A stretch of 64,000 nt of DNA from an uncultured Pseudomonadota bacterium (GCA_963770585.1 CAVYQH010000004.1:48453-112452); one strand, 5' to 3'; counted from the first letter of the stretch, positions 8,378 to 31,759 are shown. Numbers and translations: made by a program. The notes: generated by a model not told the origin, from the letters alone.

Positions 8378-8380
8378 GGC

Positions 8381-14276: not shown

Positions 14277-14305
14277 CCCGCCGTCAAGATGGCGTGCATT
14301 AGTGC

Positions 14306-15076: not shown

Positions 15077-15499
15077 AGGCCTGCCAGTTATTCCGTCCTT
15101 TTCGAGAAACGCGGGGCGCTACAAAATGGCCCACTGCTGAACCAAAGCTTTGCTTAAGAAGACCAAACTGGAGTAGTTTCCCTGCGGGGATTGACGATGG
15201 TTTGAGCGCGACGGGCGCCGCCAATAAGAATAGGTCTGGGTTGGCCAATGGTCTGAGCGTTGGTGGCCAAGACAAGAAAAAGGGGAACGCCAAATAAAGC
15301 GTTTGAAACTCCGTGTGATTTTCAAATCACGCGCACAGCTTGCGTGCTATTCGCGCAGTCCGTGAGGTTCGCGGGTTCTCGCTTACCCGCCGTGCTGTCC
15401 AAGGCGACCGGTCCGCGTTCACCGGCCGGCACCAACGTTGTTTCATACGTCGATCGGGGGCCGACCTTGGGGGCGGAGAAGTTCCAATTGGGGCGTCGC

Positions 15500-15751
15500 A
15501 TGAACGAGATCCGTACGTCGAATAGCGGTGCGCAAGTGCCTGGGCCGGAGTTCGCAGCGTGGTGGCGTGTCGCCCTGCTGTTGCTGTCGGGTGCAGCGGT
15601 AATCATTTCATTGATACCATCCTTCAAAGAAGCCATTGAGCTGCCACATACGTACAGAATGCAACAGAACAAACGCTCATGGCTGCGGTTTCAATCGGTC
15701 GATGCTGGTGACCGCAAATTTACCTACGTCGATTTCGCTACCGCAGCGTAA
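15500..15751 (+). CDS. hypothetical small membrane protein (weak call)
   Basis: An internal ATG of ORF 15260-15751 gives an 83-aa product with one hydrophobic helix (WWRVALLLLSGAAVIISLI). No recognisable family. Confidence 0.2.
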   Translation: MNEIRTSNSGAQVPGPEFAAWWRVALLLLSGAAVIISLIPSFKEAIELPHTYRMQQNKRSWLRFQSVDAGDRKFTYVDFATAA

Positions 15752-17741: not shown

Positions 17742-18124
17742 CGGACGGCGACCAAAGAGTCCTAGACCAAATGAGGCAAATGGATTCGACCTGAAAAGGT
17801 TTCGACTACGGGACTACGGCGCAGTTTCCGACGTCAATATCGTACTGATATGTTTACCGAACCTTTTCTCAAAAGCTTGTTATTTAAGTCGACAACCGCG
17901 GACGCTGATCTCACGGCGAGTGGGAGTTTCTTGAAGGGCAGTTTACCGGTGATACACAGGCCTTTGCGTTTACTTGGTTGGCATCGATGAGGCTGCTCGA
18001 TGAACTACAACTTCGAACGTACGCCCCAGGGCAAAATGTGCTTCGGCAGGGCGTCGACGGTAACCCTCGAGGATGGCAGTCGCCTCCGCAGAACCGGTAA
18101 TTGTCAGACGGCGTCCTTCTGCAT

Positions 18125-18892
18125 CTAAGGCCGACGCTTGCGTAAGAGCATAGAACCTTTTGATCCCAGCTTTGGCAAGTACATTGATGACAACACCTCA
18201 ACTCGCTTCCAAACCGGCAGCGCAAACCCAGGGAGAGCCGAGATAAAGTGACTGCTTAGGAGAAAGTACCCGTGGCTGGCCAGAACTTCGCAGTTACCTT
18301 CGATTGCCACCGTGGCAAGCTCATTGAATGAGAAGAGCGGAGGGTGTCCTGGCCTCGGTAGGGGAAAACCTGACGTTGCGAAATCAATAAGAACATAGCC
18401 TCCCGGTGCTACTACCCGCATTTTCTCTTTGACAACGTCAATAGCAGCCTGTTTTGTGTCCAACCTGTTAAGAACGCGGGTAGAAAAAACAAAGTCGAAC
18501 GCACCATCTTCGAACCCTGTGTCCTGGCCGCTTCGCACGACAAAAGATATGTTGTCGAGGCTTCTCGCCTTCGACTTGCCCTCCTCCAGCATGTATTCTG
18601 AGGGATCGAGAGCCGTGACATTGAAACCTTGCTTCGCGAGCTCGATAGCGAATCGAGCTGTGCCGGCGCCGATTTCAAGAATTCGTGCACCGGGCGCCAA
18701 ATAACTGACTGCGCGCTCGAGCTGCCGATCCTCAATCCAATGTATCAATCGACCTTGTGGAGTGGTGAAGCGGGCACGGTCGTAATTCCTTGCCTGAACT
18801 TCCGAATAGGCTGTCAACAAACCATCCTCATGTTCTACAGATCTCGTATTTAAAGTGGATCTCGATTCCGACGCCGGGCATGATGCTGTCAT
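18125..18892 (-). CDS. class I SAM-dependent methyltransferase
   Basis: Motif I ILEIGAGTARFAIELAKQG, post-I VTALDPSEYML, motif II FDFVFSTRVLNRL. Confidence 0.85.
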   Translation of the reverse strand: MTASCPASESRSTLNTRSVEHEDGLLTAYSEVQARNYDRARFTTPQGRLIHWIEDRQLERAVSYLAPGARILEIGAGTARFAIELAKQGFNVTALDPSEYMLEEGKSKARSLDNISFVVRSGQDTGFEDGAFDFVFSTRVLNRLDTKQAAIDVVKEKMRVVAPGGYVLIDFATSGFPLPRPGHPPLFSFNELATVAIEGNCEVLASHGYFLLSSHFISALPGFALPVWKRVEVLSSMYLPKLGSKGSMLLRKRRP

Positions 18893-19620
18893 TCGGTATG
18901 AGCTGCGCGTCGATTCCGAACAGCAGCAACAACGTCCTGAAGGTCAGGGTGTTCAATTGCGTCGAGCTGAGCCAGGGATATTTCACCGTCGTGTCCTTTC
19001 CGATACAGCTCATCGCGATATGCTTGCCACTTCCAATGCCTGGCAGAGATTCGAGCTGGTATTGCCGCTACTCCCGCAACTTTTGCCAAAGCCAATCGAT
19101 GTTTTCCAGTCATGAAGAGGAATTCGCCGTTAGCCCCAATGCTCAAACAGAACGGGTCCGTTGCGCGGTTCGGCCATGTAGGGATCGCAAACCCCTTAGT
19201 GGACAATGTCTCGAAAAGCGACCGATAACGTAATAGATCCGGCGGTTTCTGATGCGGTAGCGGCGATTCGGTGACAAAGAGTTTCCTGAACTGATCGACA
19301 AGCCTGCTGTGCTTCGGAGGGAGGCGCATCATACGCTCCCACTCCTTCCTTTGGATCAATCCACTGAATCGATATAGTTTCCGCCGGACGAATTTCGAAG
19401 ATTCAATTGAGTATTCGATAGTGTGGGGTGGCACGTAAACCGTCGCGATTGGGCAAGCCGGTTTGGCATATGCAAAGTAATGCACAACAAATAGTAGACA
19501 GGACTGGACATCGAAGACGGTAAGAACCAGCCACTTTAGTGCGGCGTTCAAGACACTATATATCTCACGAAGGTGGAGACTCGGGAGTCGGCGTCCCTGT
19601 TGTTGCTTAACGCGACTCAT
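18889..19620 (-). CDS. hypothetical protein with ParB/Srx-like motif
   Basis: Its stop overlaps the methyltransferase start (4-nt overlap). GEFLFMTGKHRLALAKVAGVAAIPARI resembles the ParB N-terminal/sulfiredoxin-fold GxHRxxAA..G...IP signature. Start placed at ATG 19620, because the longer ORF (to 19824) would overlap the capD-like start. Confidence 0.45.
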   Translation of the reverse strand: MSRVKQQQGRRLPSLHLREIYSVLNAALKWLVLTVFDVQSCLLFVVHYFAYAKPACPIATVYVPPHTIEYSIESSKFVRRKLYRFSGLIQRKEWERMMRLPPKHSRLVDQFRKLFVTESPLPHQKPPDLLRYRSLFETLSTKGFAIPTWPNRATDPFCLSIGANGEFLFMTGKHRLALAKVAGVAAIPARISARHWKWQAYRDELYRKGHDGEISLAQLDAIEHPDLQDVVAAVRNRRAAHTE

Positions 19621-19800
19621 ACATCCATGTTCCAGTCTAACCCACCCGGTCAATTTAGCGACGAGAGTTCTGCCTCCCGGCCCGCCATTTGTGCTAAGTT
19701 TCTGGTCCGTACGGATAACAAAAACAAGTGCCGATACCGGTATGACAAAAACAACAAATGGTAGCTTACATCCGCCGGCGAGAAGCCAAGGGAGGCCAGG

Positions 19801-21810
19801 ATGATGGACCATCCAGGTCAGCAAGATCCCCGATTTTCAAGGGAGCGAGCGCTCCGTATCTCGCTGATCCAGCTTCCGCGCCTTACCAAGCGGCTCATCA
19901 TGTTGGGATCCGACATTGCCGGTGTCCTGGGCTGCTTCGCGCTTTGCCTCTGGCTGAGCCTGATCATTCCCGTGTCGGTCGGCGACCTGGCGCTGCTCGC
20001 AACCGCGACACTCCTCGTGGCGCTGGCCCTGGCCCGGTATCTCGGCTTCTATCATTCCATCGTCCGCTACCTCGGCATCGGGCTGCTCACGGCGGCCGCG
20101 CGGGTAGCTGTCGGCGCTGCGATTGCACTGGCGCTATTTGCCTGGATGTCGGGCATGACCACGCAGCCAGGCCGCTTGGCCGTGGTCTACGCCGCGTATT
20201 GCGGCCTGTACCTCGTCAGCAGCCGCTACCTCGCCCAGTTCTTCCTGGTGCGGCGCTCGTTGGGCAAGAGCAAGGTCATAATCTACGGTGCCGGCGAGGC
20301 CGGTGCGCGGGTAGTACAGGCCATGCAGGGCGCCGCTTCGTACCGCCCGATTGCCTTCATCGACGACAAGCCGGCACTGCAGGGCATCCAGATCGACGGC
20401 TTGACGGTCTATCCGCGTTCCAGTTTGCCGTTCTTGATTAAAAAGTATGACGTCGCGCGCGTGCTGCTCGCGATCCCGAGCGCGTCGCGGCGGGAACGCC
20501 AGGACATCATCGCGGAACTCGAGCAATTGTCGGTGCATGTGCAGACCGTGCCGGATTTCGTCGACCTGATCACCGGCAAAGCACGCGTCGATGACATTCG
20601 CGACGTGGATGTCGAAGACCTGCTGAGCCGGCCGCCGGTGGCACCGAACGAGCATCTCATGGCAGCCACGTTGCTGAACAAGTCGGTCCTCGTGACCGGC
20701 GCCGGCGGTTCCATCGGCTCCGAGCTGTGCCGGCAGATCGTTCGGGTTGGTCCAAGGCGGCTCGTGCTGTTCGAGATTTCCGAGCCGGCGCTGTACGTAA
20801 TCGACCGGGATCTCCGCGCTCTGGCGGCCAAGATCGGCATGCAGTGCGAGATCGTGCCGCTGCTCGGGTCGGTGCAGGACGAACGTCGCGTCAACGAAGT
20901 GATGAGCAGTTTCCATATCGACACGGTGTATCACGCGGCGGCCTACAAGCACGTGCCCATCGTGGAGCAGAACATCATCGAGGGCGCCTGCAACAACGTG
21001 CTGGGCACGGTGACCACCGCGGCAGCGGCCATCGCCAACCGCGTCAAGACTTTTGTCCTGGTATCCACCGACAAGGCCGTCAGCCCCACGAACGTCATGG
21101 GCGCCACGAAACGCTTTGCCGAACAGATCCTGCAGTCGATGCAAAAGCCCTCGCACTCCACCTGCTTCTCCATGGTGCGCTTCGGCAACGTTCTGGAATC
21201 GTCCGGCTCGGTCGTGCCCCTGTTCCGCGAACAGATTCGGCACGGTGGCCCGGTCACGGTGACCCACCCGGAAATCATTCGCTATTTCATGACCATCCCC
21301 GAGGCGGCGCAGCTCGTCATCCAGGCCGGCGCCATGGCCCGCGGCGGCGACGTCTTCGTGCTGGACATGGGCGAGCCTGTGAAGATCAAGGACCTCGCCG
21401 CGCGCATGATCAATCTGACGGGACTCACGGTGCGCAACGCGGACAACCCGGACGGTGACATCGAGATCCAGTTCACGGGGCTCAGGCCCGCCGAAAAGCT
21501 CTACGAGGAGTTGCTGATCGGCGAGAACGTATCCGGCACCCGGCACCCGCGCATCATGCGGGCCGAAGAGGACTTCATACCGGAGGAGGCTTTAAAGCCC
21601 CTGCTCGGCGACCTCGTGCTGGCCGCCCACCAGCTCGATCGCGAACGCATGCGCAATATCCTGCGCGACACTGTGAAGGAATATCGGCCGACCAACGACA
21701 TCGGCGACCTGATCTGGGGCCAGCGCCGGACGCAGAAGGCGGGCGCCGAAGACAATGTCGTGGAACTCAAGACCGTCGCCAGGCCCGACCGGGGTTCTTC
21801 CGTAGCTTAG
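19801..21810 (+). CDS. membrane-bound UDP-HexNAc 4,6-dehydratase (CapD/WbpM/PglF family)
   Basis: Four N-terminal TM helices, IIYGAGEAG and VTGAGGSIGSEL Rossmann motifs, HAAAYKHVPIVE, VLVSTDKAV. 669 aa. Confidence 0.9.
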   Translation: MMDHPGQQDPRFSRERALRISLIQLPRLTKRLIMLGSDIAGVLGCFALCLWLSLIIPVSVGDLALLATATLLVALALARYLGFYHSIVRYLGIGLLTAAARVAVGAAIALALFAWMSGMTTQPGRLAVVYAAYCGLYLVSSRYLAQFFLVRRSLGKSKVIIYGAGEAGARVVQAMQGAASYRPIAFIDDKPALQGIQIDGLTVYPRSSLPFLIKKYDVARVLLAIPSASRRERQDIIAELEQLSVHVQTVPDFVDLITGKARVDDIRDVDVEDLLSRPPVAPNEHLMAATLLNKSVLVTGAGGSIGSELCRQIVRVGPRRLVLFEISEPALYVIDRDLRALAAKIGMQCEIVPLLGSVQDERRVNEVMSSFHIDTVYHAAAYKHVPIVEQNIIEGACNNVLGTVTTAAAAIANRVKTFVLVSTDKAVSPTNVMGATKRFAEQILQSMQKPSHSTCFSMVRFGNVLESSGSVVPLFREQIRHGGPVTVTHPEIIRYFMTIPEAAQLVIQAGAMARGGDVFVLDMGEPVKIKDLAARMINLTGLTVRNADNPDGDIEIQFTGLRPAEKLYEELLIGENVSGTRHPRIMRAEEDFIPEEALKPLLGDLVLAAHQLDRERMRNILRDTVKEYRPTNDIGDLIWGQRRTQKAGAEDNVVELKTVARPDRGSSVA

Positions 21811-23565: not shown

Positions 23566-23673
23566 CGGTCGTCCTCCCTAAGAGCAACTGTGACTTCCCT
23601 ACTTGGTAGTATATTCTACTACCCATCGTCCGAACAAGCTCACTCCCTAAGATCGATCCTCGGTCGAGCGCGC

Positions 23674-23876
23674 GTTGGAGCGCGCCATGCGCGCGACCAG
23701 GTCGCACCTGTGAGGCGCTCCAACTCAGTGACGTCGTGCCTGTTGGAGCGCGCCATGCGCGCGACCTTTCGCGTGAAAGCGGTCGCGCCTATGAGGCGCT
23801 CCAACAGCCTTGAAGGTCGCGGCCGAGGGGCGCTCCTGCGGGCGATGTTAGAGTCGCGCTTATGAGGCGCTCCAAC
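23674..23876. repeat. REP-like repeat block (6 copies)
   Basis: Units at 23674-97 (fwd), 23701-24 (rev), 23742-65 (fwd), 23782-805 (rev), 23816-39 (rev, degenerate) and 23853-76 (rev). Forward form GTTGGAGCGCGCCATGCGCGCGAC; reverse form GTCGCGCCTATGAGGCGCTCCAAC. Confidence 0.85.
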
Positions 23877-23887
23877 AGCAGGCATGA

Positions 23888-25564
23888 ATGCTCGCCCGCC
23901 ATTTCCTGGATCTGATCTGGCACGATGAGGCCCTGCGGCGCAGGGCGACCATCTGCGTCGCGCTCGCACTCGTCGCGGCCGGCAGCGAGATCGCCGTCGC
24001 GCTCGCTTTCCTCCCCATCCTGGCTTCGCTCGGCGTAGACGCCGGCGAGGAGTTGGGGAATTTCATCGACAAGTTGTCGCCGGCTGGCTGGCTGGTCCTG
24101 TTCGCCGCGGCTGCGTTCGTCCGCTCGTTCGTGAACTGGCAGTCCTCCGTCCAGGACGAGCGCGGCTTTCACGAGCTCACGGTCGCACTGCAAAGCCGGC
24201 TTTACCGGGCGCTTTCCCGCGCGCACTGGGACGCGGTACGCCGCATCTCGCCGCCAACGCTGACCAATGCGCTGCAAACGCAGGCGTACTCCGCGGGCGA
24301 CGGCTTCAGTTCCCTCGTGCTGATGACGACGGATGTCCTGCTGGTCATCGGCTACCTCATCTCGGCCGCTTTCGTCTTCCCCCTCGCAGTGCCGCTGGTG
24401 CTGTTGATGGTCGTCGTCATGTGGCGGCTCAACAAGGGCAGCTCCGGGCGGGTATACGAACATGCCGAGGATTTCTACGCGGCCCAGGAGGACCTCCACC
24501 AGCGCTACGAAGACTGGGTGGCGATCAGCCGCATTGCGTCGTTCGGCATGGATACGTCGAAACTCGCCAACCGCTTCGAGAACGATGCGCGCCAGGCGGC
24601 CGGCCATGCCGTGAAAATCTCCCGCTCCTTTGCCTTTACCCGGATCACGTACGACGCGGCCGCCGCCATCGCGATACTCGCCGGCGTGCCCATCGCCTGG
24701 AAGCTCGGAACACCACCGGCTTTGCTGGCCTTCGGCCTGGTGTTGCTCGTGCGGGTCCTGCCACGCATCGTCAGCATTCACTCCAACTACCAAGGCGTGA
24801 TTCGCTCCGTCGCGCCCGTACGCGCGATCACGGACCTTGCCGAACAGCTCGAACGCGACCCGGCGGTGCATGCGCCGACAACCGAGCGGCTAGCGTGGCA
24901 GTCGCTCGAACTCACCGACGTGGGAGTCGAGGACACGCTGCGCGACTCGGGCCGGCACTGGATACTGCACGACATCAGTCTCGAAGTGCGCCACGGCGAG
25001 TGGATCGCACTGAGCGGGCCGACCGGCGCCGGCAAGACGACTTTGGCCGACGTCATGCTGACGCTCGTGCGGCCCGATGCGGGGCATTTGCGCATCGACG
25101 GCCGCGACGTCGACGCCGAACTCGCGAGCCACTGGCGCAACCAGGCGGCCTACGTGCCGCAGGACGTCGTGCTGTTCGATGCATCGATCCGCGACAACCT
25201 GAAACTCTACGTGCCCGACGCGACCGACGCCGACCTCGAGGTGGCGCTCAGGCAATCGGCGGCCGAGTTCGTGTTCGAGCGCCTGCCGGAGGGGCTGGCT
25301 ACGCAGGCGGGCCCGGGCGGGCGCTGGCTATCCGGCGGCGAGCGCCAGCGGATCGGCATTGCACGCGCGCTGCTCAGGAAACCCGGCTTCCTCGTGCTCG
25401 ACGAGCCCACCGCCGCACTCGACTCGGCGACCCAAACGAATCTGATGCACGCACTCGCGGGCCTTGAGCAAACGATGAGCGTCGTGCTGATCACGCACCG
25501 GCACGAGCTTCTCGAACTCGCCGATCGCGTCATGAACATCGAGGACGGAACGATCAGCCGCTGA
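23888..25564 (+). CDS. ABC transporter, fused permease/ATPase (lasso-peptide exporter type)
   Basis: Six-TM N-domain. Walker A GPTGAGKTT, signature LSGGERQRIGIARAL, Walker B FLVLDEPTAALD. 558 aa, adjacent to lasso genes. Confidence 0.85.
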   Translation: MLARHFLDLIWHDEALRRRATICVALALVAAGSEIAVALAFLPILASLGVDAGEELGNFIDKLSPAGWLVLFAAAAFVRSFVNWQSSVQDERGFHELTVALQSRLYRALSRAHWDAVRRISPPTLTNALQTQAYSAGDGFSSLVLMTTDVLLVIGYLISAAFVFPLAVPLVLLMVVVMWRLNKGSSGRVYEHAEDFYAAQEDLHQRYEDWVAISRIASFGMDTSKLANRFENDARQAAGHAVKISRSFAFTRITYDAAAAIAILAGVPIAWKLGTPPALLAFGLVLLVRVLPRIVSIHSNYQGVIRSVAPVRAITDLAEQLERDPAVHAPTTERLAWQSLELTDVGVEDTLRDSGRHWILHDISLEVRHGEWIALSGPTGAGKTTLADVMLTLVRPDAGHLRIDGRDVDAELASHWRNQAAYVPQDVVLFDASIRDNLKLYVPDATDADLEVALRQSAAEFVFERLPEGLATQAGPGGRWLSGGERQRIGIARALLRKPGFLVLDEPTAALDSATQTNLMHALAGLEQTMSVVLITHRHELLELADRVMNIEDGTISR

Positions 25565-26021
25565 AGCGGTGGATCTCGGTATATCGGCCCAGGTGTTCGC
25601 CGCCGATCACCATCGCATCGCCGCAGGTCAGCCAGGCATGACCGGCCAGCGCGTCGTCCCCGGGCCGCTCGACGCCCAGGTGAATCGTCGGGAAGTGGCC
25701 GTAGCTTTTCAGCAGCGCTCGCGCCGCGATCGCCTTCGGCAGGCACGTCGAGCGCCAGGGCACATTGGCGGCGGCCGTGGTCACGGCGAACGCGATTCGC
25801 TTGAGCAGCTCGGGATCGTGATTGCCATCACCCTCTTTGCCGCCGTCCGACAAGCGGGCCGCAAGGCGTTCGAAAGGCATGGTCGAAAGCTGCACACGCG
25901 CAATAGCCAGTGCGGTGATCGCACGCAGGAACAGCCACTTGTCTGACGTGCGCAAGTCGCCGAAACGCCGCAGTTTCCTTTGCCAGTGCGAGGTCCGCAT
26001 GGCCGGATTATGCGCCCGCAA
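25554..26021 (-). CDS. lasso peptide biosynthesis B2 protein (transglutaminase-like Cys protease)
   Basis: WRSTCLPKAIAARALLKSYGHFPTIHLGV......LAGHAWLTCGD.VIGG shows the Cys and His of the catalytic triad in the usual B2 context. Alternative start at ATG 26000. Confidence 0.85.
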   Translation of the reverse strand: MRAHNPAMRTSHWQRKLRRFGDLRTSDKWLFLRAITALAIARVQLSTMPFERLAARLSDGGKEGDGNHDPELLKRIAFAVTTAAANVPWRSTCLPKAIAARALLKSYGHFPTIHLGVERPGDDALAGHAWLTCGDAMVIGGEHLGRYTEIHRFSG

Positions 26022-26035
26022 GGCATAATCCGGCC

Positions 26036-27179
26036 ATGAGTGAATCCCTCGACGAGCACTACGGGTATCTCGCCGATCGCGTGAAACTCGAGCGCTACCG
26101 GGCAGCGATCGAACGCCTCGTGCAGCCCGGGCACGTCGTGATGGACCTCGGTTGCGGCAGCGGGGTGTTGGGCCTGATGGCGTTGCGCGCAGGCGCGGGC
26201 AAAGTCCTGTTCGTCGACCAGAGCGCCATCATCGAGGTCGCGCGGCAGACGACTGCCCGGGCGGGCTTTGCCGGGCGTGCCGAGTTCTTCCTCGCGAACT
26301 CGTTCGAGCTCGACCTGCGAGAGCGCGCCGATATCATCGTTTGCGATCACGTCGGCTACTTCGGTTTCGACTACAGCATTCTCGCCCTGCTCGCCGATGC
26401 GCGGCAGCGTTTCCTGAAGCCCGGCGGCATCCTGGTACCCGCCGCCGTCGACCTCGCGCTCGCGCCGGTCGAGGCCGAAAGCGGCCGCGAACTCGTGGCG
26501 CGCTGGCGCAATGGCGCCGTGCCGGACGACTACGCCTGGGTCGGTGCATCGGCCGCCAATACGAAGCACGCCATCGAAGCAACGGCAGAGAACCTGCTTG
26601 CCGATGCGGCGACGCTTGCGACACTCGAACCCGGCGCGGGTGTCGCCGAATACTCTGAGCTGGCAGGCGGATTTCACGTGTACGCGCAGCGGCACCCTCG
26701 ACGGCCTGCTCGGCTGGTTCGACGCGCGGCTTTGCGACGACATTCGCATGAGCAATTCGCCGCTGTCGGCGGACAAGCTCGAGCGCCCGCAGGCGTTCCT
26801 GCCGCTGCTCGAAATGTACTCTGACCCCATTATTGTTCGCGAAGGGGAGCCGATTCGCGCCACGGTCATGGTGCGCCATGACGACCACATTCTTGCCTGG
26901 ACCGTCGAACTGCCGGAACAGGACCGGCGCTTTTCCCTGACGACGTTCAACGGCCTGTTGCTCGACGACGAGGCGCTCAAGCGCAGCCGGCCGGATCGCA
27001 TCGCCCGGCTCAACGAGCGCGGCCGGGCACAGCAGGTTGTGCTGTCCTACTGCGACGGGACGCGAACCGTCGCCGAAGTCGAGGCACTCGTTCGCAAGGA
27101 GCACCCGGACCTGTTCCCCTCGGCCCGGGCCGCCGAGAAGCTCGTAAGAAGCGTGCTGGCGTGGAGCACCGGCGAATGA
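26036..27179 (+). pseudogene. class I methyltransferase (PRMT-like layout) with C-terminal PqqD-like domain; one frame switch near 26650
   Basis: Frame 2: VVMDLGCGSGVLGLMALRAGAGKVLFVDQS.., ADIIVCDHVGYFG.., FLKPGGILVP. Frame 0 continues with TLSWQADFTCTRSGTLDGLLGWFDARL..NSPL... The tail LNERGRAQQVVLSYCDGTRTVAEVEALVRKEHPDLFPSARAAEKLVRSVLA resembles a PqqD/RRE domain. Confidence 0.65.
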
Positions 27180-28039
27180 CTTACCATTCGGTGGGCTACT
27201 CGGTGGCGCCCGATCGGCCGCAGCAACGCATAGCGACGAAGCCCTTTCACCGCTATACGCACCAGGACGGCACGGTCTGGACCGAGTTCTATCGCTCGGA
27301 ACAAGGCTACCTGTTGCGCTTTCCCGAGCTTGCCGACTTCGAGGTATCGGCGAGCGGCGACACGGTCATTGCCTACCCGGCCACCGGCACCGACGCGGCA
27401 ACGGTCGAGCATCTCTACATCAACCAGCTCGTGCCCCTCGCGTTGAGCCGCCAGGGTCGACCGGCTTTTCACGCGAGCGTCGTTACGGTGCCCGGCGGCG
27501 CTGTCGCCTTTCTCGGCAAGACCGGCATGGGCAAGTCCACGCTCGCGGCATCCTTCGCCCTCGAGGATGCGACGTTCCTGACCGACGACGCACTGCTGAT
27601 CGACGAAAGCAGCGGCATACGCGCGATGCCGAGCCACGCCTCGTTGCGCCTCTGGGAAGACAGCATCGAAGCGCTGATACCCGAAGACACGCCCAAGGCC
27701 GGGGCAATCAGTTACTCGAGCAAAGCGCGTTTACTCGCCGGCGACGCCTTGCGCTACACGAACGAGCCCGTGGCATTGCTCGCGGCGTTCGAACTCCAGT
27801 GGCAGGACATCGACGACATCAGGATCCAGCCGCTCGAAGGTTCCGAACGGCACATGGCCTGGATCGAAAACTCGTTCCTGCTCGACATCGAGGACAAGGA
27901 TCTATTGGCGCGGCATTTCGACTGGACGTACCGGGTCGCCGATCGCGTGCCGACGTTCCGGCTGGACTATCCGCGCGACTATGGCATGCTCGCCAGGGTT
28001 CGCGATGCCGTGCGTCGGCAAGTCGCGAAACCCGGATAA
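27161..28039 (+). CDS. HprK-related kinase (lasso-cluster type)
   Basis: AFHASVVTVPGGAVAFLGKTGMGKSTLAASFALEDATFLTDDALLID matches the HPr-kinase C-domain P-loop context (G.SG.GKST.A..L......L..DD). ATG 27176 (ATGA overlap with the upstream stop) is an alternative start. Confidence 0.75.
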   Translation: MEHRRMTYHSVGYSVAPDRPQQRIATKPFHRYTHQDGTVWTEFYRSEQGYLLRFPELADFEVSASGDTVIAYPATGTDAATVEHLYINQLVPLALSRQGRPAFHASVVTVPGGAVAFLGKTGMGKSTLAASFALEDATFLTDDALLIDESSGIRAMPSHASLRLWEDSIEALIPEDTPKAGAISYSSKARLLAGDALRYTNEPVALLAAFELQWQDIDDIRIQPLEGSERHMAWIENSFLLDIEDKDLLARHFDWTYRVADRVPTFRLDYPRDYGMLARVRDAVRRQVAKPG

Positions 28040-28072
28040 TCTGTTTCGATAAACAAGAAGTCTGGAAAACCA

Positions 28073-28357
28073 GTGAATCTCGATACCCGCCTTTCCGTAC
28101 CGCCGCAGGTCATGTCGCGCCCCGTCGGCGACGAGACCGTGCTGCTCGATCTCGCGAGCGGGATGTACTTCGGTCTCGACGGCGTCGGCAAGCGTATCTG
28201 GGAGTCCGTCTCCGGCGGCAGGAGCCTTGCCGAAACGGTGGATGCCATCGTCGCGGAGTACGACGTCGGCGAGGAACAGGCCCGGTGCGACGTGATCGAC
28301 TTCGCGCAGCGACTGGTCGAACGCGGCCTACTCGCTCAAAGACCGCCCGACAAGTAG
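28073..28357 (+). CDS. PqqD-family protein (lasso B1 / RiPP recognition element)
   Basis: 94 aa, GTG start. VGDETVLLDLASGMYFGLDGVGKRIWESVSGGRSLAETVDAIVAEYDV..EQARCDVIDFAQRLVERGLL has the canonical PqqD layout. Confidence 0.85.
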   Translation: MNLDTRLSVPPQVMSRPVGDETVLLDLASGMYFGLDGVGKRIWESVSGGRSLAETVDAIVAEYDVGEEQARCDVIDFAQRLVERGLLAQRPPDK

Positions 28358-29390
28358 ATCCGCAAACGCGTCGAGATCGGCCTTGCTGCGACGGCTCGCC
28401 GTTCGGCGGCCCCGCGCCGCGCGCAGCACGTCGCCAGGCGCGTCGTGCAGGAAGAGCGTAAAGCCGAGCAGGCGCGTCCAGCGGGCATTCGACGTGCGAC
28501 CCGGCAGGTCGTTTTGCAGCCAGTAGTCGAGCCAGGTTCGGCGCAAGCGCCCGGGCTCGAGGTCAGCCAGCATTTTCGGCAGCATCGCGGGAGCGTACCT
28601 TCCGGCAAGCAGGTCCACCCAGCGCAATGTCGCCCATGCGGCAACGCGCACGCCGTTCTCTTCGAGCAACGTCCGTACGCGATGCCAGTCGAACTGCTGG
28701 CCGCGCAAGCACTCGAGCAGATCGGCCACGCGATGCAAGCCCATGTTCCATCCCGCGAGGTGCTTGCCGAACGCGGGATGCACGAGGAGCGTGAACAGCG
28801 TGTCCTCGGGGCTTTGCATCCACATGTCGTGAAGCCGCCTGCGCCGCGCCAGCATCCCTTCGGTCGGGTCGGTGCCCAGCCGGCCTTCGCGCAACAAGCC
28901 CCAGTGCAGGTCGACGTTCGCATCGCTGCGTGTCAAGCACAAGCTCGCGGCTGATGCCTGCTTCATCGGCTACTGCGGCAAATCCCCGACCGACCAGGGC
29001 TTTCGCCGCGACGAATTTGTCTTCTGGCCGGACCAGGATGTCGAGGTCGAGGCACGCACGGACGGCCGGGTTCGCGTACCAAAGCATCCGGTTTGCAGCG
29101 CCCTTGAAGACGACGTGCTCGACTTCAGCGGCATCCAGGGCGGCACCGATCTCGCGTAGCGCCTTGTCCTGGGCGAGGAACATCGCCTCCGCCTGCATGC
29201 GCGACTCATGGAATTCCGAGCGCCCGGTACGCGCGTGCCACAGCGGCCCGAGGCCGTGGTCGACGACGAACGACACGAAGTCCCCGGAGCGTTCGTCGAG
29301 TACTGCTAACAGCGCGTCATCGGGTGCATCGACGTGCGCGGCCAGGAGCGCCGTTTGGTAATTATTGAGCCGTGGGTCGAGCCGTGGCAT
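28328..29390 (-). pseudogene. nucleotidyltransferase family protein (NTP_transf_5-like), one frame switch near 28940
   Basis: N-part (ORF 28563-29390): VVFKGAANRMLWYANPAVRACLDLDILVRPEDKFVAAKALVGRGF. The C-part continues in ORF 28328-28966 (..TRSDANVDLHWGLL.., TLLVHPAFGKHLAGW..). Confidence 0.7.
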
Positions 29391-29410
29391 GTGGTAATAG
29401 TAGCCGACTT

Positions 29411-31183
29411 ATGAGGGGCATCTGCGGCATCTTCAGCGCCGGCAACGCGACCGTCGACGAGGCGGACCTCGGCGCGACGGCGATCCGGCATGCGGAATCG
29501 GGTTGCAGCATCACCGCGGATGCTGCCCTGTATTACCGCGACGATCTGCTTTCGGCCCTGGGAACGCGGGACAATTCGCTCGACGACGCCGAACTGATCC
29601 TCGCCGCGTATCTTCGCTGGGGTGAGGAATGCGTCGAGCACCTGGAAGGGGATTTCGCGTTCGTCATCCACGACCCGCGCAAGCGGACATTGTTCTGCGC
29701 TCGCGATCCGTACGGCATGCGTCCGCTCTACTACCACTACGTTACGCCGGGCGAGTGTTTTGTCTTCGCCTCGGATGCGCGCGACGTGCTGTGCTACCCA
29801 CAGGTGCCGTTTGCGATCAACGAAGGGCGTATCGCCGACTTCATCGTCGAGGAACTCGAGTGGCTCGACCTCACGAGCACCTTCTACGAGGGCATCGATC
29901 GCCTGCCGCCGGCGCACAAGATCACGATCGATGCGGCGGGTCTGAAGATCGCCGAGTACCGGGCGCCGGCGTGCGGGCCGCTGCTGAACCTGGAAACGGA
30001 CGCAGACTACAACGAGGCTTTTCTCGACGTATTTTCGCGCGCCGTTTCCGAGCGGCAGCAGGTTCGGGGCAGCGAAGCCGGCTCGATGCTGAGCGGCGGC
30101 CTGGATTCGGGCTCGATCGTCGCCCTCGCGAAGAAACCGCTGCGCACCTACTCGCTCGCGAGGCGGCGCGATTCCGATTGCGCCGAGTCGCGCCGCATCT
30201 ACGCGACGCTCGACTTCCTGGGCCTGGAAGGTAAGCAGATCATCGCGGATGAGCCGGCCAGCCTGACGGAGGACCTCGGCGCCGATCTCGCGGAACCCTA
30301 CGACGGCCACTTCCTGTTCCTGAAGGCCATCTACGAAACGGCGAAGCGAGACGGGTTCAACGCCGTGCTCGACGGTTCCGCCGGTGATCTCGTGTTCAAC
30401 GAAGGCGCGTATGTCACCCGGCTCATGCGCCGTGGCCAGCTCGCGCAGGCCTGGCATGAGACCGTCGGCGAGCAGGCTTTCTGGGGCGGTTCGTCGGCTG
30501 CGCCCGCTTTTCTTCGATACTGCGCAAGCGCCTTCACACCGGGCTTGGTGAAGACGCTGCTCCGCGGACCCAGGCAGCGCAGGAACGAGCGAAGTCATGT
30601 CAAGGCATCCCTGATCAGTCCGGCTTTTGCGCAACACGTCGACATCGAGGCGCGCTTCGAGCGCATGCGCGAGACATTCTCCGGCCTCCAGTCAGGGGAT
30701 CCTGGCCTCGAGCGGGTTCGAAAGATCCGCCCAAACCTGACGGCCGGCCGTGAGCGCTACGGGCGCATTGCCGCAGCCGCAGGCATTGAGGCGCGCGATC
30801 CGTACACCGACCTGCGGGTCGTCGACTTCTGCTCGCGCCTTCCGGACGACCAGCTCGCGCGGGACGGCTGGCCCAAGTTCCTCCTGCGCAACGCAATGGA
30901 AGGCCGGCTGCCCGACGCCGTCCGCTGGGGCCGGGGCAAGCCGCATATCGGCGGGGTCTATAACGAGAATTTTCTCAAGCGGGAAAGATTGGCGGGTAGA
31001 CTGAATCTCGATGGCTTGCGTGCCGCGCTCGGAGCCTATGTCGATTCTGGGGCGCTGGGCCGTGCGTGGCATGAATTCGAGGCGGGCGGGGCGTGCGAAC
31101 CTGTCCATACAGCGTACATTTTGTCACTCTGGCTCGACCAGGCCGCCCGACGACCGATTGTTAATGATCGGGGGTTTGGCTAG
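29411..31183 (+). CDS. lasso peptide cyclase (asparagine synthetase-like, C protein)
   Basis: MRGICGIF N-terminus (Ntn-like). PP-loop region MLSGGLDSGSIV. About 590 aa. The precursor gene lies 81 nt downstream. Confidence 0.85.
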   Translation: MRGICGIFSAGNATVDEADLGATAIRHAESGCSITADAALYYRDDLLSALGTRDNSLDDAELILAAYLRWGEECVEHLEGDFAFVIHDPRKRTLFCARDPYGMRPLYYHYVTPGECFVFASDARDVLCYPQVPFAINEGRIADFIVEELEWLDLTSTFYEGIDRLPPAHKITIDAAGLKIAEYRAPACGPLLNLETDADYNEAFLDVFSRAVSERQQVRGSEAGSMLSGGLDSGSIVALAKKPLRTYSLARRRDSDCAESRRIYATLDFLGLEGKQIIADEPASLTEDLGADLAEPYDGHFLFLKAIYETAKRDGFNAVLDGSAGDLVFNEGAYVTRLMRRGQLAQAWHETVGEQAFWGGSSAAPAFLRYCASAFTPGLVKTLLRGPRQRRNERSHVKASLISPAFAQHVDIEARFERMRETFSGLQSGDPGLERVRKIRPNLTAGRERYGRIAAAAGIEARDPYTDLRVVDFCSRLPDDQLARDGWPKFLLRNAMEGRLPDAVRWGRGKPHIGGVYNENFLKRERLAGRLNLDGLRAALGAYVDSGALGRAWHEFEAGGACEPVHTAYILSLWLDQAARRPIVNDRGFG

Positions 31184-31264
31184 AGTAGGGGTATCCTCGC
31201 TCGATTGAGCACACGCAATGCGCTCGACTCTCGAAGAGCGACCTGCAGCGACCGTGGCATTCCG

Positions 31265-31561
31265 ATGAATAACACCAAGCAACATCCGCAAGAAGAACAC
31301 GGCTCGCCCGTCAAAGCGGCATACAAGAAGCCGAATTTGAAGGAGTTTGGGTCCGTCGGCATCCTGACCCAGGCGGGCACCGGAACCCTGACCGAGCTCA
31401 TGCTCAATATGATGTCGAGCATGGACCCGAATGCGCAGGAACTAGGGCCCCGTTCGAGCGCGCTGTTGGAGCGCCCCATGGGCGCGACTTCTTTACCCGG
31501 TAGACCCGTCGCGCCTATGAGGCGCTCCAACAGTTCCTGCGTAGCCTCGTCGCGCCTCTGA
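31265..31561 (+). CDS. lasso peptide precursor (3' end uncertain)
   Basis: MNNTKQHPQEEHGSPVKAAYKKPNLKEFGSVGILTQ|AGTGTLTELMLNMMSSMDPNAQ... The leader carries YKKPNLKEFGSVGILTQ, which is YxxPxLx3Gx5Tx. The predicted core starts at Ala1 with Glu8 as ring acceptor. As assembled, the ORF runs on through three REP units to 31561. Confidence 0.65.
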   Translation: MNNTKQHPQEEHGSPVKAAYKKPNLKEFGSVGILTQAGTGTLTELMLNMMSSMDPNAQELGPRSSALLERPMGATSLPGRPVAPMRRSNSSCVASSRL

Positions 31562-31572
31562 GGCGCTCCAAC
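31465..31572. repeat. REP-like repeats (3 copies)
   Basis: 31465-88 fwd (GTTGGAGCGCCCCATGGGCGCGAC), 31508-31 rev, 31549-72 rev. Confidence 0.85.
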
Positions 31573-31759
31573 AAATTCAGAAAATTTCACCGCCGGCATA
31601 AGGAATTTTCACCTGCCGCCGCGACATCCTCAGGGTCGAGCCCGCCCGTCTCGGACCCTAAGCAAATCAAAACGAGAAGTCGGGGTATTCGACGGAGCGG
31701 TTCCTGGATTCCTGCGCGATCGCAGGGAACCTACCTAAGAAGAACCGGGAGTACCGTCC

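What the first reader, a model, noticed from the sequence alone, without database searches (positions are those of the whole stretch)
23888..31561. Lasso-peptide gene cluster with a kinase, a nucleotidyltransferase and an RRE-fused methyltransferase
Seen: all core lasso functions lie within 7.7 kb. These are the ABC exporter (23888-25564), B2 Cys-protease (25554-26021), stand-alone PqqD/B1 (28073-28357), Asn-synthetase-like cyclase (29411-31183) and a precursor directly downstream (31265-). Interleaved with them are an HprK-like P-loop kinase (27161-28039), an NTP_transf_5-like nucleotidyltransferase (28328-29390) and a class I methyltransferase with its own PqqD-like tail (26036-27179). Established: split-B lasso clusters have this core. 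Kinase and kinase-plus-nucleotidyltransferase lasso clusters are known to phosphorylate a C-terminal Ser and further decorate that phosphate. Inference: three tailoring enzymes together, one with a private leader-recognition domain, predicts a multiply modified lasso peptide that I cannot match to any characterised one. This is my best candidate for a new system in the window.
Basis: partly seen in the sequence, partly recalled or inferred. Interest (0 to 1): 0.8.

Follow-up and report, generated by a model that had tools for sequence, protein, structure and literature searches.

The report
Triple-tailored lasso peptide cluster beside polysaccharide genes
This is a real gene cluster for a knotted "lasso" peptide that also carries a kinase, a nucleotidyltransferase and an arginine-methyltransferase-like enzyme; it belongs to a large, unstudied family in soil bacteria that nearly always sits inside sugar-coat (polysaccharide) export loci.

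Summary
There are four corrections. (1) B2 and the nucleotidyltransferase lie on the minus strand. (2) The methyltransferase, the nucleotidyltransferase and the precursor each carry a single-base insertion private to this window. Two relatives (97.7% and 92.6% identical) are intact at those sites, and the window has similar insertions in AcrB, so these are most likely assembly errors. (3) The corrected core is AGTGTLTELMLNMMSSMDPNRRN, with no C-terminal Ser, so paeninodin-type phosphorylation does not apply. Thr3 is the likely site, by analogy with BsfK of Bradymonas, which phosphorylates Ser3. (4) The methyltransferase is a PRMT-fold enzyme. Its three-helix tail shows no PqqD/RRE signal in Pfam, profile-profile or fold searches.

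The cassette is not unique. There are more than 570 methyltransferase homologues and 90 distinct cores (G2 and E8 invariant, T/S3 in 88 of 90). Gene order is strictly conserved. In all five independent more distant window-type loci with downstream sequence, Wzc/Wza/Wzb/Wzi follow the precursor.

The methyltransferase's target is unresolved: three clusters that carry it have cores without Arg or Lys. I found no paper on a PRMT-like lasso tailoring enzyme or on the polysaccharide link. Verdict: new variant of a known kind, moderately high interest.

The parts
23888..25564 (+). ABC exporter (lasso D protein), 558 aa
   Evidence: ABC_tran E 3.5e-31 with a weak ABC_membrane hit. It holds the first position in every related cassette.
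25554..26021 (-). B2 leader peptidase (transglutaminase-like Cys protease). It is on the minus strand and converges on the ABC gene with an 11-nt overlap. The likely ATG start is near 26000.
   Evidence: PF13471 E 8.9e-23; NF033537 lasso_biosyn_B2 at 88 bits against a cut-off of 33. The 'TCLPKA' Cys and 'GHAWL' His are present and match the B2 sequences in PMC10368454 supplement 3.
26036..27179 (+). PRMT-fold SAM methyltransferase with a C-terminal three-helix extension, 380 aa once the extra C at 26655 is removed. In the window it is split into ORFs 26036-26824 and 26511-27179.
   Evidence: Best PDB sequence hits are PRMT6, PRMT1, PRMT2, PRMT3 and CARM1, E about 1e-19. AF2 model of the 92%-identical P0001: pLDDT 81. 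Foldseek to PRMT6: E 1e-24, TM 0.65-0.78. The frameshift was located against L001 and L021. More than 570 homologues, mostly 376 aa.
27161..28039 (+). HPr-kinase-like P-loop peptide kinase (K). Its start overlaps the methyltransferase stop by 19 nt.
   Evidence: PF07475 E 0.0027 and TIGR04352 E 6.8e-8, both sub-threshold. His / GxxGxGKST / (D/E)D is invariant across 12 homologues. It matches the motif shown by mutagenesis to be essential in BsfK (PMC10368454).
28073..28357 (+). Stand-alone PqqD-type RRE (B1), 94 aa
   Evidence: PF05402 E 2.3e-19. Lasso PqqD NCBIfam models at E 7e-14 and 1e-11, below their cut-offs.
28328..29390 (-). NTP_transf_5 nucleotidyltransferase (N; same Pfam family as the psmN/bsfN-type genes), 353 aa once the extra base at about 28935-28937 is removed. 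It is on the minus strand and converges on B1 with a 30-nt overlap.
   Evidence: PF14907 hits on both halves (profile positions 39-123 and 132-247), E 3.2e-12 and 9.2e-11. The intact 353-aa orthologue is in L001. The 'DLDILV' DxD motif is present.
29411..31183 (+). Asn-synthetase-like lasso cyclase (C). It diverges from N with a 20-nt spacer.
   Evidence: Asn_synthase E 3.2e-33, GATase_7 E 1.1e-21. The best NCBIfam hit is the lasso isopeptide cyclase model, E 6.6e-95.
31265..31445 (+). Precursor peptide (A). Leader: MNNTKQHPQEEHGSPVKAAYKKPNLKEFGSVGILTQ. Core: AGTGTLTELMLNMMSSMDPNRRN. The window carries an extra G at 31433, so the ORF as written reads on to 31561.
   Evidence: Y(-17)xxP(-14)xL(-12), T(-2), A1 and E8 are all present. 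The identical core is encoded intact by P0121/L021, and a near-identical one by L001. A sub-threshold hit to a lasso peptide model supports the lasso-type precursor (NF033528 lasso_cyano, E 0.012, residues 17-37 of the precursor).
23650..23880 (.). Cluster of REP-like repeats bounding the cassette on the left
   Evidence: Core GGCGCTCCAACAG: 30 sites in the window against 3.0 expected. Sites at 23714, 23740, 23795 and 23866.
31463..31574 (.). Cluster of REP-like repeats bounding the cassette on the right. The hairpin at 31471-31485 lies 26 nt after the corrected stop.
1093..21810 (+). Context: polysaccharide biosynthesis locus upstream. It includes GT1/GT4 glycosyltransferases, two sulfotransferases, ATP-grasp_ST, Bac_transf, DegT, an AT3-SGNH acyltransferase and Polysacc_synt_2. 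A few of its genes are on the minus strand.
   Evidence: The same Polysacc_synt_2 neighbour is found in L001 and L021.

Best explanation
This is a functional split-B (B1/B2) lasso-peptide biosynthetic cluster. It belongs to a large, conserved and uncharacterised family.

Shown by sequence: a 59-aa precursor carries the canonical leader (YxxPxL at -17 to -12, Thr at -2). Its 23-residue core is AGTGTLTELMLNMMSSMDPNRRN. The cluster also encodes B1, B2, the cyclase, an ABC exporter and three accessory enzymes.

Inferred pathway:
1. B1 binds the leader.
2. The HPr-kinase-like enzyme, guided by B1, phosphorylates the linear precursor. The most likely site is Thr3 of the core, not a C-terminal Ser.
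3. The NTP_transf_5 enzyme further decorates that phosphate, by analogy with PsmN, which is needed for hexose addition.
4. The PRMT-fold methyltransferase adds one or more methyl groups. Its gene is always next to the kinase gene and is translationally coupled to it here. The acceptor is unresolved. Candidates are the group installed by K/N, or a tail Arg/Lys where one exists. The methyltransferase has no RRE of its own and probably depends on B1 or the kinase to reach the substrate.
5. B2 removes the leader.
6. The cyclase joins Ala1-NH2 to the Glu8 side chain.
7. The ABC transporter exports the product.

The three frameshifts in the window are most likely assembly errors.
For: Core enzymes are assigned by profiles.

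Precursor family: 92 members and 90 distinct cores. Y(-17) and P(-14) are present in 91 of 91. The TQ junction is present in 92 of 92. G2 and E8 are each 90 of 90. T/S at position 3 is 88 of 90. A C-terminal Ser is 0 of 90.

Kinase site: BsfK of Bradymonas sediminis phosphorylates core Ser3, accepts S3T, needs the leader and is stimulated by B1 (PMC10368454). The window's kinase keeps the H/G/K/S/D/D residues shown there to be essential.

Nucleotidyltransferase: PF14907 with a DxD motif. PsmN is needed for hexose addition on the phosphate (PMC6993621).

Methyltransferase: PRMT fold.

Linkage: the MT and K genes are adjacent in all four cluster architectures seen.

Conservation: identical gene order and strand pattern in L001, L002, L016, L017, L019/L020, L022, L023 and L098, and in the part of L018 that the contig covers.

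Frameshifts: each is a single-base insertion private to the window. L021 (97.7% identical) and L001 (92.6%) are intact at those three sites. L021 has its own different insertions. The window has at least 8 private insertions in AcrB, where L021 is intact.
Against: No product has been observed for any member of this family. No activity of K, N or the MT has been tested here.

The kinase matches HPr-kinase profiles only below threshold.

The tails are Met/Gly/Asn-rich and almost free of aromatic residues, so a stably threaded lasso is not assured. Pseudomycoidin made without K and N is not threaded (PMC6993621).

Thr3 could instead be conserved for recognition by B2 or the cyclase.

The PRMT double-E loop is replaced by an invariant D...D pair, so the acceptor chemistry is uncertain.

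Three MT-bearing clusters (L098, L100, L025) have cores without Arg, Lys or His. This argues against arginine methylation as the general role.

The frameshifts cannot be proven to be errors without the reads.
Confidence: 0.7

Rival explanations
1. Paeninodin/pseudomycoidin-type chemistry. The kinase phosphorylates a C-terminal Ser of the precursor and the nucleotidyltransferase decorates that phosphate.
For: All lasso kinases characterised before BsfK act on a C-terminal Ser (PMC9266682, PMC8498205). PsmA was once mis-sequenced at its last codon, so C-termini deserve caution.
Against: The corrected core ends in ...NRRN. None of 90 family cores ends in Ser; they end in P, A, C, L, N, I, V or T. 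PadeA, PsmA, ThcoA, PapoA, BaceA and SyanA all end in Ser, and their precursors share no core motif with this family.
Confidence: 0.03
2. The cluster is a decaying pseudogene cluster in this organism. The three frameshifts are real and knock out the methyltransferase, the nucleotidyltransferase and the precursor's stop codon.
For: There are three frameshifts in 7.7 kb, none in a homopolymer. The cassette has lost the Wzc/Wza/Wzi neighbours seen elsewhere. REP elements and a toxin-antitoxin pair flank it.
Against: The insertions are private to the window. L021 (97.7% identical, same flanks) and L001 lack them. L021 has other single-base insertions at different sites. The window shows the same kind of insertions in AcrB and DUF4838, and L021 is intact across the AcrB stretch that could be compared. 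Apart from the indels, all eight reading frames are conserved, with no premature stops.
Confidence: 0.1
3. The product is not a free antimicrobial lasso peptide. It is a component or regulator of the neighbouring polysaccharide pathway. One possibility is a phospho-(glyco)peptide that primes, caps, anchors or tunes Wzc/Wza-dependent export. In this view K, N and the MT build a phosphodiester-linked, methylated head group.
For: All five independent distant window-type loci that reach past the precursor (L016, L017, L019/L020, L022, L023) have Wzc-Wza-Wzb-Wzi immediately after it, except that no Wza or Wzb was found in L017. Polysaccharide genes lie before the ABC gene in L016, L018, L019/L020 and L023. 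Distant Acidobacterial kinase-lasso loci L003 and L004 also have Wza/Wzc about 5 kb downstream. The window, L021 and L001 abut a polysaccharide locus. From my own knowledge, as a lead only: WbdD, a kinase-methyltransferase, caps E. coli O9a polymannan with methyl phosphate for ABC export.
Against: The evidence is purely positional. Polysaccharide loci are hot spots for accessory genes. The cassette carries its own exporter, like ordinary lasso clusters. The window clade has lost the Wzc side with no visible change to the cassette. The bsf and psm clusters are not reported to lie in such loci.
Confidence: 0.15
4. The methyltransferase is a true protein arginine (or lysine) N-methyltransferase. 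It methylates the basic residue near the C-terminus of the tail (here Arg21/Arg22) and so creates a bulkier plug.
For: It has the PRMT fold, and the best sequence and structure matches are all PRMTs. An invariant acidic pair sits at the double-E position. Arg or Lys lies within the last six residues in 83 of 90 cores. The tails lack other bulky residues.
Against: L098 is a complete window-type cassette with a single precursor whose core is AGTGTMGEQGGGMMA. L100 and L025 also carry the MT. None of these three cores has Arg, Lys or His. The double-E glutamates are Asp here, and the second is shifted by one position.
Confidence: 0.2

Closest known systems
bsf cluster of Bradymonas sediminis FA350 (BsfA/B1/B2/C/D/K/N; PMC10368454)
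   Same: Split-B lasso cluster with an HPr-kinase-like kinase, an NTP_transf_5-type nucleotidyltransferase and an ABC exporter. YxxPxL leader. Eight-residue ring. Hydroxyl residue at core position 3, which BsfK phosphorylates on the leader-bearing precursor with help from B1. No C-terminal Ser. The kinase catalytic motif is shared.
   Different: bsf has no methyltransferase. It has Ile rather than Thr at -2, a Gly1-Asp8 ring rather than Ala1-Glu8, and a different core. It is flanked by FG-GAP and ribosomal protein genes, not by a polysaccharide locus. Its mature product was never detected. Sequence relatedness of the kinases could be compared only over the published motif block.
Pseudomycoidin (psm) cluster of Bacillus pseudomycoides (PMC6993621)
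   Same: Kinase plus PF14907-type nucleotidyltransferase tailoring of a split-B lasso peptide. The nucleotidyltransferase's DxD motif is needed for adding hexose(s) to the phosphate.
   Different: Firmicute cluster. The acceptor is the C-terminal Ser. There is no methyltransferase. The core and gene order differ.
Paeninodin / ThcoA / SyanA kinase clusters (Zhu et al. 2016, as reviewed in PMC9266682 and PMC8498205)
   Same: An HPr-kinase homologue acts on the linear precursor. The His-Lys-Asp-Asp motif is shared.
   Different: These require a C-terminal Ser, which this family lacks in all 90 cores. They have no methyltransferase. Only some have a nucleotidyltransferase.
Methylated lasso peptides: lassomycin/StspM C-terminal O-methylation, and PIMT-type aspartimide formation (cellulonodin-2, lihuanodin)
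   Same: A SAM-dependent methyltransferase encoded in a lasso cluster acts on the peptide.
   Different: Those enzymes are mitomycin-O-MT-like or PIMT-like, not PRMT-fold. Their targets are the C-terminal carboxylate or Asp6. They do not occur together with a kinase and a nucleotidyltransferase.
Eukaryotic type I protein arginine methyltransferases (PRMT6, PRMT1, CARM1)
   Same: Rossmann domain plus beta-barrel fold (Foldseek E 1e-24, TM up to 0.79). SAM motif I. Acidic residues on the loop equivalent to the double-E loop.
   Different: 19-25% identity. The glutamates are replaced by an invariant Asp104/Asp112 pair. There is an extra C-terminal three-helix domain found only in this bacterial family. 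The substrate is unknown, and Arg cannot be the universal target.

Membership tests
Lasso peptide biosynthetic gene cluster (split-B type) | Asn-synthetase-like macrolactam cyclase (C) | tested here: met
   PF00733 E 3.2e-33. The best NCBIfam model is the lasso cyclase, E 6.6e-95, at 319 bits against a 525-bit cut-off.
Lasso peptide biosynthetic gene cluster (split-B type) | Transglutaminase-like Cys protease B2 with catalytic Cys and His | tested here: met
   NF033537 at 88 bits, above the 33-bit cut-off. PF13471 E 8.9e-23. The TCLPKA and GHAWL motifs are present.
Lasso peptide biosynthetic gene cluster (split-B type) | PqqD-like RRE (B1) | tested here: met
   PF05402 at 69.9 bits, above the 23.4-bit cut-off.
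Lasso peptide biosynthetic gene cluster (split-B type) | Precursor with YxxPxL at -17 to -12, Thr at -2, a small residue at position 1 and Asp/Glu at positions 7-9 | tested here: met
   Y(-17), P(-14), L(-12), T(-2), A1 and E8 are present in the window. Across the family these are conserved in 91/91, 92/92 and 90/90 members.
Lasso peptide biosynthetic gene cluster (split-B type) | Threaded lariat topology of the product | not testable with these tools
   This needs MS/NMR, thermal or protease unthreading assays. The tails lack aromatic plug residues.
C-terminal-Ser phosphorylated lasso peptides (paeninodin, pseudomycoidin and SyanA type) | HPr-kinase homologue with the His/Lys/Asp/Asp motif | tested here: met
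   HAS...GKTGMGKST...TDD is invariant in 12 homologues and matches the published alignment.
C-terminal-Ser phosphorylated lasso peptides (paeninodin, pseudomycoidin and SyanA type) | Precursor ends in Ser | tested here: not met
   The core ends in Asn. No C-terminal Ser in any of 90 cores. All six known substrates end in Ser.
Residue-3 phosphorylated lasso peptides (Bsf type) | Ser/Thr at core position 3 together with a kinase and B1 | tested here: met
   Thr3 in the window. T/S at position 3 in 88 of 90 cores. The kinase gene lies next to the B1 gene.
Residue-3 phosphorylated lasso peptides (Bsf type) | Demonstrated phosphorylation at residue 3 | not testable with these tools
   This needs co-expression and MS/MS, as done in PMC10368454.
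Residue-3 phosphorylated lasso peptides (Bsf type) | Ile/Val at leader position -2 | tested here: not met
   Thr at -2 in 92 of 92 precursors.
RRE (PqqD-like) fusion on the methyltransferase | Winged-helix domain with a three-stranded sheet plus three helices, detectable as PqqD/RRE | tested here: not met
   No PF05402 hit in any of 24 tails at E up to 10. hhalign against the cassette's PqqDs gives E 0.32. The model shows three helices after a disordered linker and no sheet. Foldseek: best hit E 0.9; PqqD 3g2b at E 5.3.
Protein arginine methyltransferases (PRMT) | Rossmann plus beta-barrel PRMT fold | tested here: met
Protein arginine methyltransferases (PRMT) | Double-E loop glutamates that hold the guanidinium | tested here: not met
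   SEWMGY..HES in PRMT6 aligns with CDHVGYFGFDYS here. Asp104 and Asp112 are invariant instead.
Protein arginine methyltransferases (PRMT) | An arginine substrate | tested here: inconclusive
   Arg/Lys lies near the C-terminus in 83 of 90 cores, but is absent from the cores of the MT-bearing clusters L098, L100 and L025.
HprK-related kinase A system (TIGR04352) | Score above the model's cut-off | tested here: not met
   31.9 bits against a cut-off of 200.

The most novel reading that the evidence does not exclude
The cassette is a dedicated accessory of Wzx/Wzy-Wzc-type polysaccharide loci across phyla. In this reading the lasso-type peptide is phosphorylated on Thr3, extended on the phosphate by the nucleotidyltransferase, and methylated by a PRMT-fold enzyme that has been repurposed for a non-arginine acceptor. 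The modified peptide then acts on capsule or exopolysaccharide assembly as a cap, anchor, primer or Wzc/Wza modulator, rather than as an antibiotic.
Probability: 0.15. Interest if true: 0.85.

Novelty: new variant of a known kind. Interest (0 to 1): 0.6.

Why it matters
Lasso peptides are valued as very stable scaffolds, and only about nine tailoring chemistries are known for them. This family would add a PRMT-fold methyltransferase. That fold is hardly explored in bacteria and, in the literature I could search, is not reported in any RiPP pathway. Here the enzyme is tightly linked to a kinase and a nucleotidyltransferase.

The family is abundant in soil metagenomes: more than 570 methyltransferase homologues, more than 1,600 kinase homologues and 90 distinct cores. 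It therefore represents a sizeable untapped product class with a clear, testable mass prediction.

The near-constant insertion between glycosyltransferase/flippase genes and wzc-wza-wzb-wzi suggests a physiological link between a RiPP and capsule or exopolysaccharide production. No current model of either system includes such a link.

Tried and rejected
1. Exact-protein look-ups of the window's ABC exporter and of P0213 (100% identical kinase on a 220-kb contig) found nothing, so the source record could not be read. Cluster membership gave no names or accessions.

2. The metagenome-contig scan with the methyltransferase alignment was swamped by the generic SAM motif. Only L024-L028 were true relatives. 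L025 and L026 were still useful.

3. I first favoured arginine methylation of the tail, because of the PRMT fold and Arg/Lys in 83 of 90 cores. I demoted it after finding three MT-bearing clusters whose cores have no basic residue. I then considered Asn/Gln amide, Met sulfur and C-terminal carboxylate as universal acceptors. L025 has no Asn or Gln, and L006 and L007 have no Met. An acidic pocket does not suit a carboxylate.

4. I tested RRE status of the tail by Pfam, hhalign and Foldseek. All three were negative.

5. The promoter/terminator scan gave no more sites than shuffled sequence, so I drew no operon conclusions from it.

6. Literature searches for lasso plus arginine methyltransferase, exopolysaccharide/PqqD, Wzc, or arginine methylation in RiPPs returned nothing relevant. 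The Zhu 2016 JBC paper is not held.

7. I considered membership of the HprK-related kinase A/B systems and rejected it on score.


Full report
OBSERVATION

- ABC exporter, 23888-25564: ABC_tran E 3.5e-31.
- B2 protease, 25554-26021: PF13471 E 8.9e-23; NF033537 at 88 bits against a cut-off of 33.
- Class I methyltransferase, 26036-27179.
- HPr-kinase-like P-loop protein, 27161-28039: weak hits only (PF07475 E 0.0027; TIGR04352 E 6.8e-8).
- PqqD/B1, 28073-28357: PF05402 E 2.3e-19.
- NTP_transf_5, 28328-29390: E 3.2e-12 and 9.2e-11.
- Asn-synthetase-like cyclase, 29411-31183: PF00733 E 3.2e-33. The best NCBIfam model is the lasso cyclase, E 6.6e-95.
- A small ORF starting at 31265.

First, B2 and the nucleotidyltransferase are on the minus strand. 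The layout is + - + + + - + +, with convergent overlaps of 11 and 30 nt and divergent spacers of only 14-35 and 20 nt. Second, three of the genes are not intact as written. The methyltransferase is split between two frames (26036-26824 and 26511-27179). The nucleotidyltransferase is split too (28563-29390 and 28328-28966). The precursor ORF runs on for 118 codons into a REP-like repeat.

ARE THE FRAMESHIFTS REAL?

A genome scan with the cyclase found two close relatives in long-read soil MAGs labelled 'uncultured proteobacterium': L001 (89% identical cyclase) and L002 (75%). L001 has all eight genes intact. Aligned with L001 (92.6% DNA identity), the window has exactly three frame-breaking differences inside genes. 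All three are +1 insertions, at 26655, 28937 and 31433, and none is in a homopolymer.

A still closer relative, L021 (an ENA 173-kb contig), was reached through the precursor search. It is 97.7% identical to the window over 17.5 kb and has the same flanks. It also lacks these three bases, but it carries its own single-base insertions at other positions in the methyltransferase, nucleotidyltransferase and cyclase. The window in turn has at least 8 private single-base insertions in AcrB, where L021 is intact. In the window AcrB is in at least five pieces and is fused to the outer-membrane factor, and a DUF4838 gene is also split.

Independent, non-shared insertions scattered over both assemblies are the signature of assembly error, not of shared pseudogenisation. 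Removing the three bases restores a 380-aa methyltransferase, a 353-aa nucleotidyltransferase and a 59-aa precursor ending in TAG at 31443-31445. I treat the genes as intact in vivo, with about 10% reserved for real decay.

THE PRECURSOR

The corrected peptide is MNNTKQHPQEEHGSPVKAAYKKPNLKEFGSVGILTQ | AGTGTLTELMLNMMSSMDPNRRN. P0121/L021 encodes exactly this core.

A profile of six precursors retrieved 92 relatives with 90 distinct cores:
- Tyr(-17) and Pro(-14) in 91 of 91.
- Leu/Val/Ile at -12.
- Thr(-2)-Gln(-1) in 92 of 92.
- Position 1 is Ala, Gly or Ser.
- Gly2 in 90 of 90.
- Thr/Ser3 in 88 of 90.
- Glu8 in 90 of 90.

This is the canonical B1-recognition motif and cleavage site, and it predicts an eight-residue Ala1-Glu8 macrolactam. 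Core length is 13-31 residues (median 21). Tails, the residues after Glu8, contain 19% Met plus Gly, Asn and Arg, and almost no aromatic residues. Fourteen cores have two or more Cys. Arg or Lys lies within the last six residues in 83 of 90. No core ends in Ser.

By contrast, every previously characterised kinase substrate (PadeA, PsmA, ThcoA, PapoA, BaceA, SyanA) ends in Ser (PMC9266682, PMC8498205).

THE KINASE

One precedent fits. In the bsf cluster of Bradymonas sediminis (A, B1, B2, C, D, K, N), BsfK phosphorylates Ser3 of the core. It accepts S3T, acts only on the leader-bearing precursor and is strongly stimulated by B1. H148, G163, K169, S170, D186 and D187 are required (PMC10368454). 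The window's kinase has the same pattern, HAS...LGKTGMGKST...LTDD. These residues are invariant across 12 homologues, including distant Acidobacterial ones.

Thr3 phosphorylation is therefore my preferred inference. It remains an inference. Thr3 might instead be conserved for the protease or the cyclase.

THE NUCLEOTIDYLTRANSFERASE

This is a PF14907 protein with the DxD motif (DLDILV). A psmN gene, annotated as an uncharacterised NTP transferase, is required for adding one or two hexoses to the phosphate of pseudomycoidin. Its D134A/D136A mutant is inactive (PMC6993621). I did not compare the PsmN or BsfN sequences with the window protein. I infer a comparable decoration of the phosphate here.

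THE METHYLTRANSFERASE

It is much more specific than 'class I'. The best PDB sequence matches are all PRMTs (PRMT6, 1, 2, 3, CARM1; E about 1e-19), and some alignments run through the beta-barrel. An AlphaFold model of the 92%-identical P0001, built with 42 homologues, has pLDDT 81. It matches PRMT6 with Foldseek E 1e-24 and TM 0.65-0.79.

The double-E loop (SEWMGY..HES in PRMT6) reads CDHVGYFGFDYS here. Asp104 and Asp112 are invariant in the family.

THE METHYLTRANSFERASE TAIL IS NOT A DETECTABLE RRE

Residues of about 327-378 form three helices after a disordered linker. Three tests gave no PqqD/RRE signal:
- None of 24 tails matched PF05402, even at E up to 10.
- hhalign against the cassette's own PqqD proteins gave E 0.32.
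- Foldseek on a tail-only model found nothing better than E 0.9. PqqD 3g2b ranked 42nd at E 5.3.

An exhaustive HMM search shows that this domain occurs essentially only at the C-terminus of these 372-386-aa enzymes or of their fragments. There are 319 representatives, and it is never stand-alone or fused to other enzymes. In L100 the MT-kinase pair comes with its own second PqqD gene, while another PqqD sits next to B2. Leader recognition for tailing enzymes is thus supplied in trans, and the tail more likely mediates protein-protein contacts.

WHAT THE METHYLTRANSFERASE METHYLATES IS OPEN

Tail Arg/Lys is attractive, given the PRMT fold, the acidic pair and Arg/Lys in 83 of 90 cores. However, three clusters that encode the enzyme have cores with no Arg, Lys or His:
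- L098, a complete window-type cassette with a single precursor: AGTGTMGEQGGGMMA.
- L100: AGTGMTSESGLCMTFMGDYCGANSGMQMA.
- L025: GSGTMMMDGGTVMVLIP.

Met is absent from the cores of the MT-bearing loci L006 and L007. Asn and Gln are absent from L025. The only features common to all MT-bearing clusters are Ser/Thr residues and the adjacent kinase gene.

The MT and K genes are neighbours in all four architectures seen:
- window type: MT-K-B1, with a 19-nt overlap in the window
- L025 and L026: MT-K
- L100: MT-K-PqqD
- L005-L007: K-MT

This points to chemistry coupled to the phosphorylation, either on the phosphate or on what N attaches to it. I rate that at about 0.35 and Arg/Lys methylation at about 0.2.

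HOW COMMON IS IT, AND WHERE DOES IT SIT?

The methyltransferase has more than 570 homologues. The top 120 are nearly all 376 aa and 58-92% identical. The kinase has more than 1,600.

Every longer contig examined shows the same eight genes in the same order and orientation, with two partial cases: L018's contig ends after PqqD, and no B2 gene was called in L023, where B2 was found only by searching the translated DNA. The contigs are L016 (a 3.7-Mb contig), L017, L018, L019/L020, L022, L023 and L098.

In all five independent loci that extend beyond the precursor, the next genes, on the opposite strand, are wzc, wza, the LMW phosphatase and wzi, except that no wza or phosphatase gene was found in L017. 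A Polysacc_synt-family flippase and/or glycosyltransferases and a sulfotransferase lie before the ABC gene in L016, L018, L019/L020 and L023. The upstream genes of L017 and L022 gave no such hits.

Distant Acidobacterial kinase-lasso loci (cyclase about 30% identical) keep K. Three of five keep the PRMT-like MT (E 1e-36 to 1e-43). Two have Wza/Wzc about 5 kb away.

In the window's own clade (window, L021, L001) the cassette abuts a polysaccharide locus on the upstream side only. That locus has four GT1/GT4 genes, two sulfotransferases, ATP-grasp_ST, Bac_transf, DegT, AT3-SGNH and Polysacc_synt_2. No Wzc, Wza or Wzi was found there. The cassette is bracketed by REP clusters.

COMPARISON WITH WHAT IS KNOWN

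The cluster works like a split-B lasso system and passes every sequence-level membership test for one. Among tailored lasso systems it is closest to bsf (K plus N, hydroxyl residue at position 3) and next closest to psm (K plus N).

It fails the defining C-terminal Ser of the paeninodin/pseudomycoidin/SyanA group. It adds a PRMT-fold methyltransferase that none of these has. Known lasso methyltransferases (StspM-type, PIMT-type) belong to other families and have other targets (PMC9266682).

NCBIfam has no model that names the methyltransferase, the nucleotidyltransferase or the precursor. The precursors score just under the generic lasso-leader models. Full-text searches found no paper that combines lasso peptides with arginine methyltransferases, Wzc/capsule or exopolysaccharide loci. 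That library lacks most subscription journals, so prior description cannot be excluded.

VERDICT

The object is a genuine, probably functional lasso cluster of a widespread but uncharacterised family, and a new variant of a known kind.

The points of real interest are:
- the PRMT-fold tailoring enzyme with a non-canonical active-site loop and an unknown acceptor
- the predicted residue-3 phosphorylation and its further decoration
- the strikingly conserved placement within polysaccharide export loci

None of the chemistry has been demonstrated. Predicted masses for a direct test are given.

Noticed in passing
window 39239-43857 (minus strand) and 11032-12862: The AcrB gene is broken into at least five ORFs, and its C-terminus is fused in frame to the outer-membrane factor. 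A DUF4838 gene is split in two. Where L021 could be compared (window 40.8-41.4 kb), its AcrB reads without these insertions. This window's sequence is therefore rich in single-base insertions, which cluster locally (8 within about 600 bp at 40.8-41.4 kb).
   Followed up: partly
window-wide, e.g. 23714-23878, 31463-31574, 36267-36334, 38893-39088, 47076, 48134-48201, 49234-49260, 54256-54320, 62417-62439: A REP-like family with core GGCGCTCCAACAG occurs 30 times against 3.0 expected, in paired or inverted intergenic clusters. Translated, it yields the recurring 'LLERPMGAT...RRSNS' pseudo-peptides that lengthen spurious ORFs, including the read-through precursor.
   Followed up: partly
window 21894-22594 (minus strand): An MqsR/MqsA toxin-antitoxin pair (E 1.7e-33 and 3.3e-66) sits between the polysaccharide locus and the cassette. 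The 97.7%-identical relative L021 has a ParD-type antitoxin gene at that spot instead.
   Followed up: no
window 1-19800: The upstream polysaccharide genes have markedly lower G+C (47-60%) than the cassette and the rest of the window (about 65%). They include two sulfotransferases and a sugar-transfer-associated ATP-grasp, which hints at a sulfated, amino-acid-decorated polymer.
   Followed up: no
window 33084-35627: An 847-aa DUF5122 beta-propeller / Calx-beta protein ends in a Gly/Asp-rich run, a hydrophobic helix and KQKRR. This may be a C-terminal sorting signal. The protein and the PAP2/vanadium-haloperoxidase-like gene at 31760-33037 are present in L021 but absent from L001, so they were inserted next to the cassette in this sub-lineage.
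   Followed up: no
L002 11790-12340: This relative has two precursor genes after the cyclase. The first is degraded or frameshifted (...FGFVGMLT / GSIGPNDIL / MMSMK in three frames). The second is intact (core SGTIMTDEFAPGMMGPMRQMP).
   Followed up: partly
L003-L007 (Acidobacterial MAG contigs): These are distant kinase-lasso clusters ordered B1-B2-C-A-K(-MT). Their precursors share the YxxPxL leader, but the cores carry a conserved D-G-G after the presumed ring acid and Lys plus Thr near the C-terminus (IKTHM, TKTA, TKTH, PKTGV). The leader/core boundary is unclear, because the residue after TQ/TR is N, Q or T in several.
   Followed up: partly
L100 7358-9611 (minus strand) and 364-1106: This cluster has two PqqD genes. 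One is next to B2. The other forms an MT-kinase-PqqD module on the other strand. A HicA-like toxin gene lies inside the cluster.
   Followed up: no
window 25554-25564, 26021-26036, 28328-28357, 29390-29411: The alternating-strand layout has convergent gene ends that overlap by 11 and 30 nt, and divergent starts only 14-35 and 20 nt apart. It is conserved in every window-type relative. The promoters for B2 and N must therefore lie inside the neighbouring coding regions, and the transcripts must overlap in antisense.
   Followed up: no
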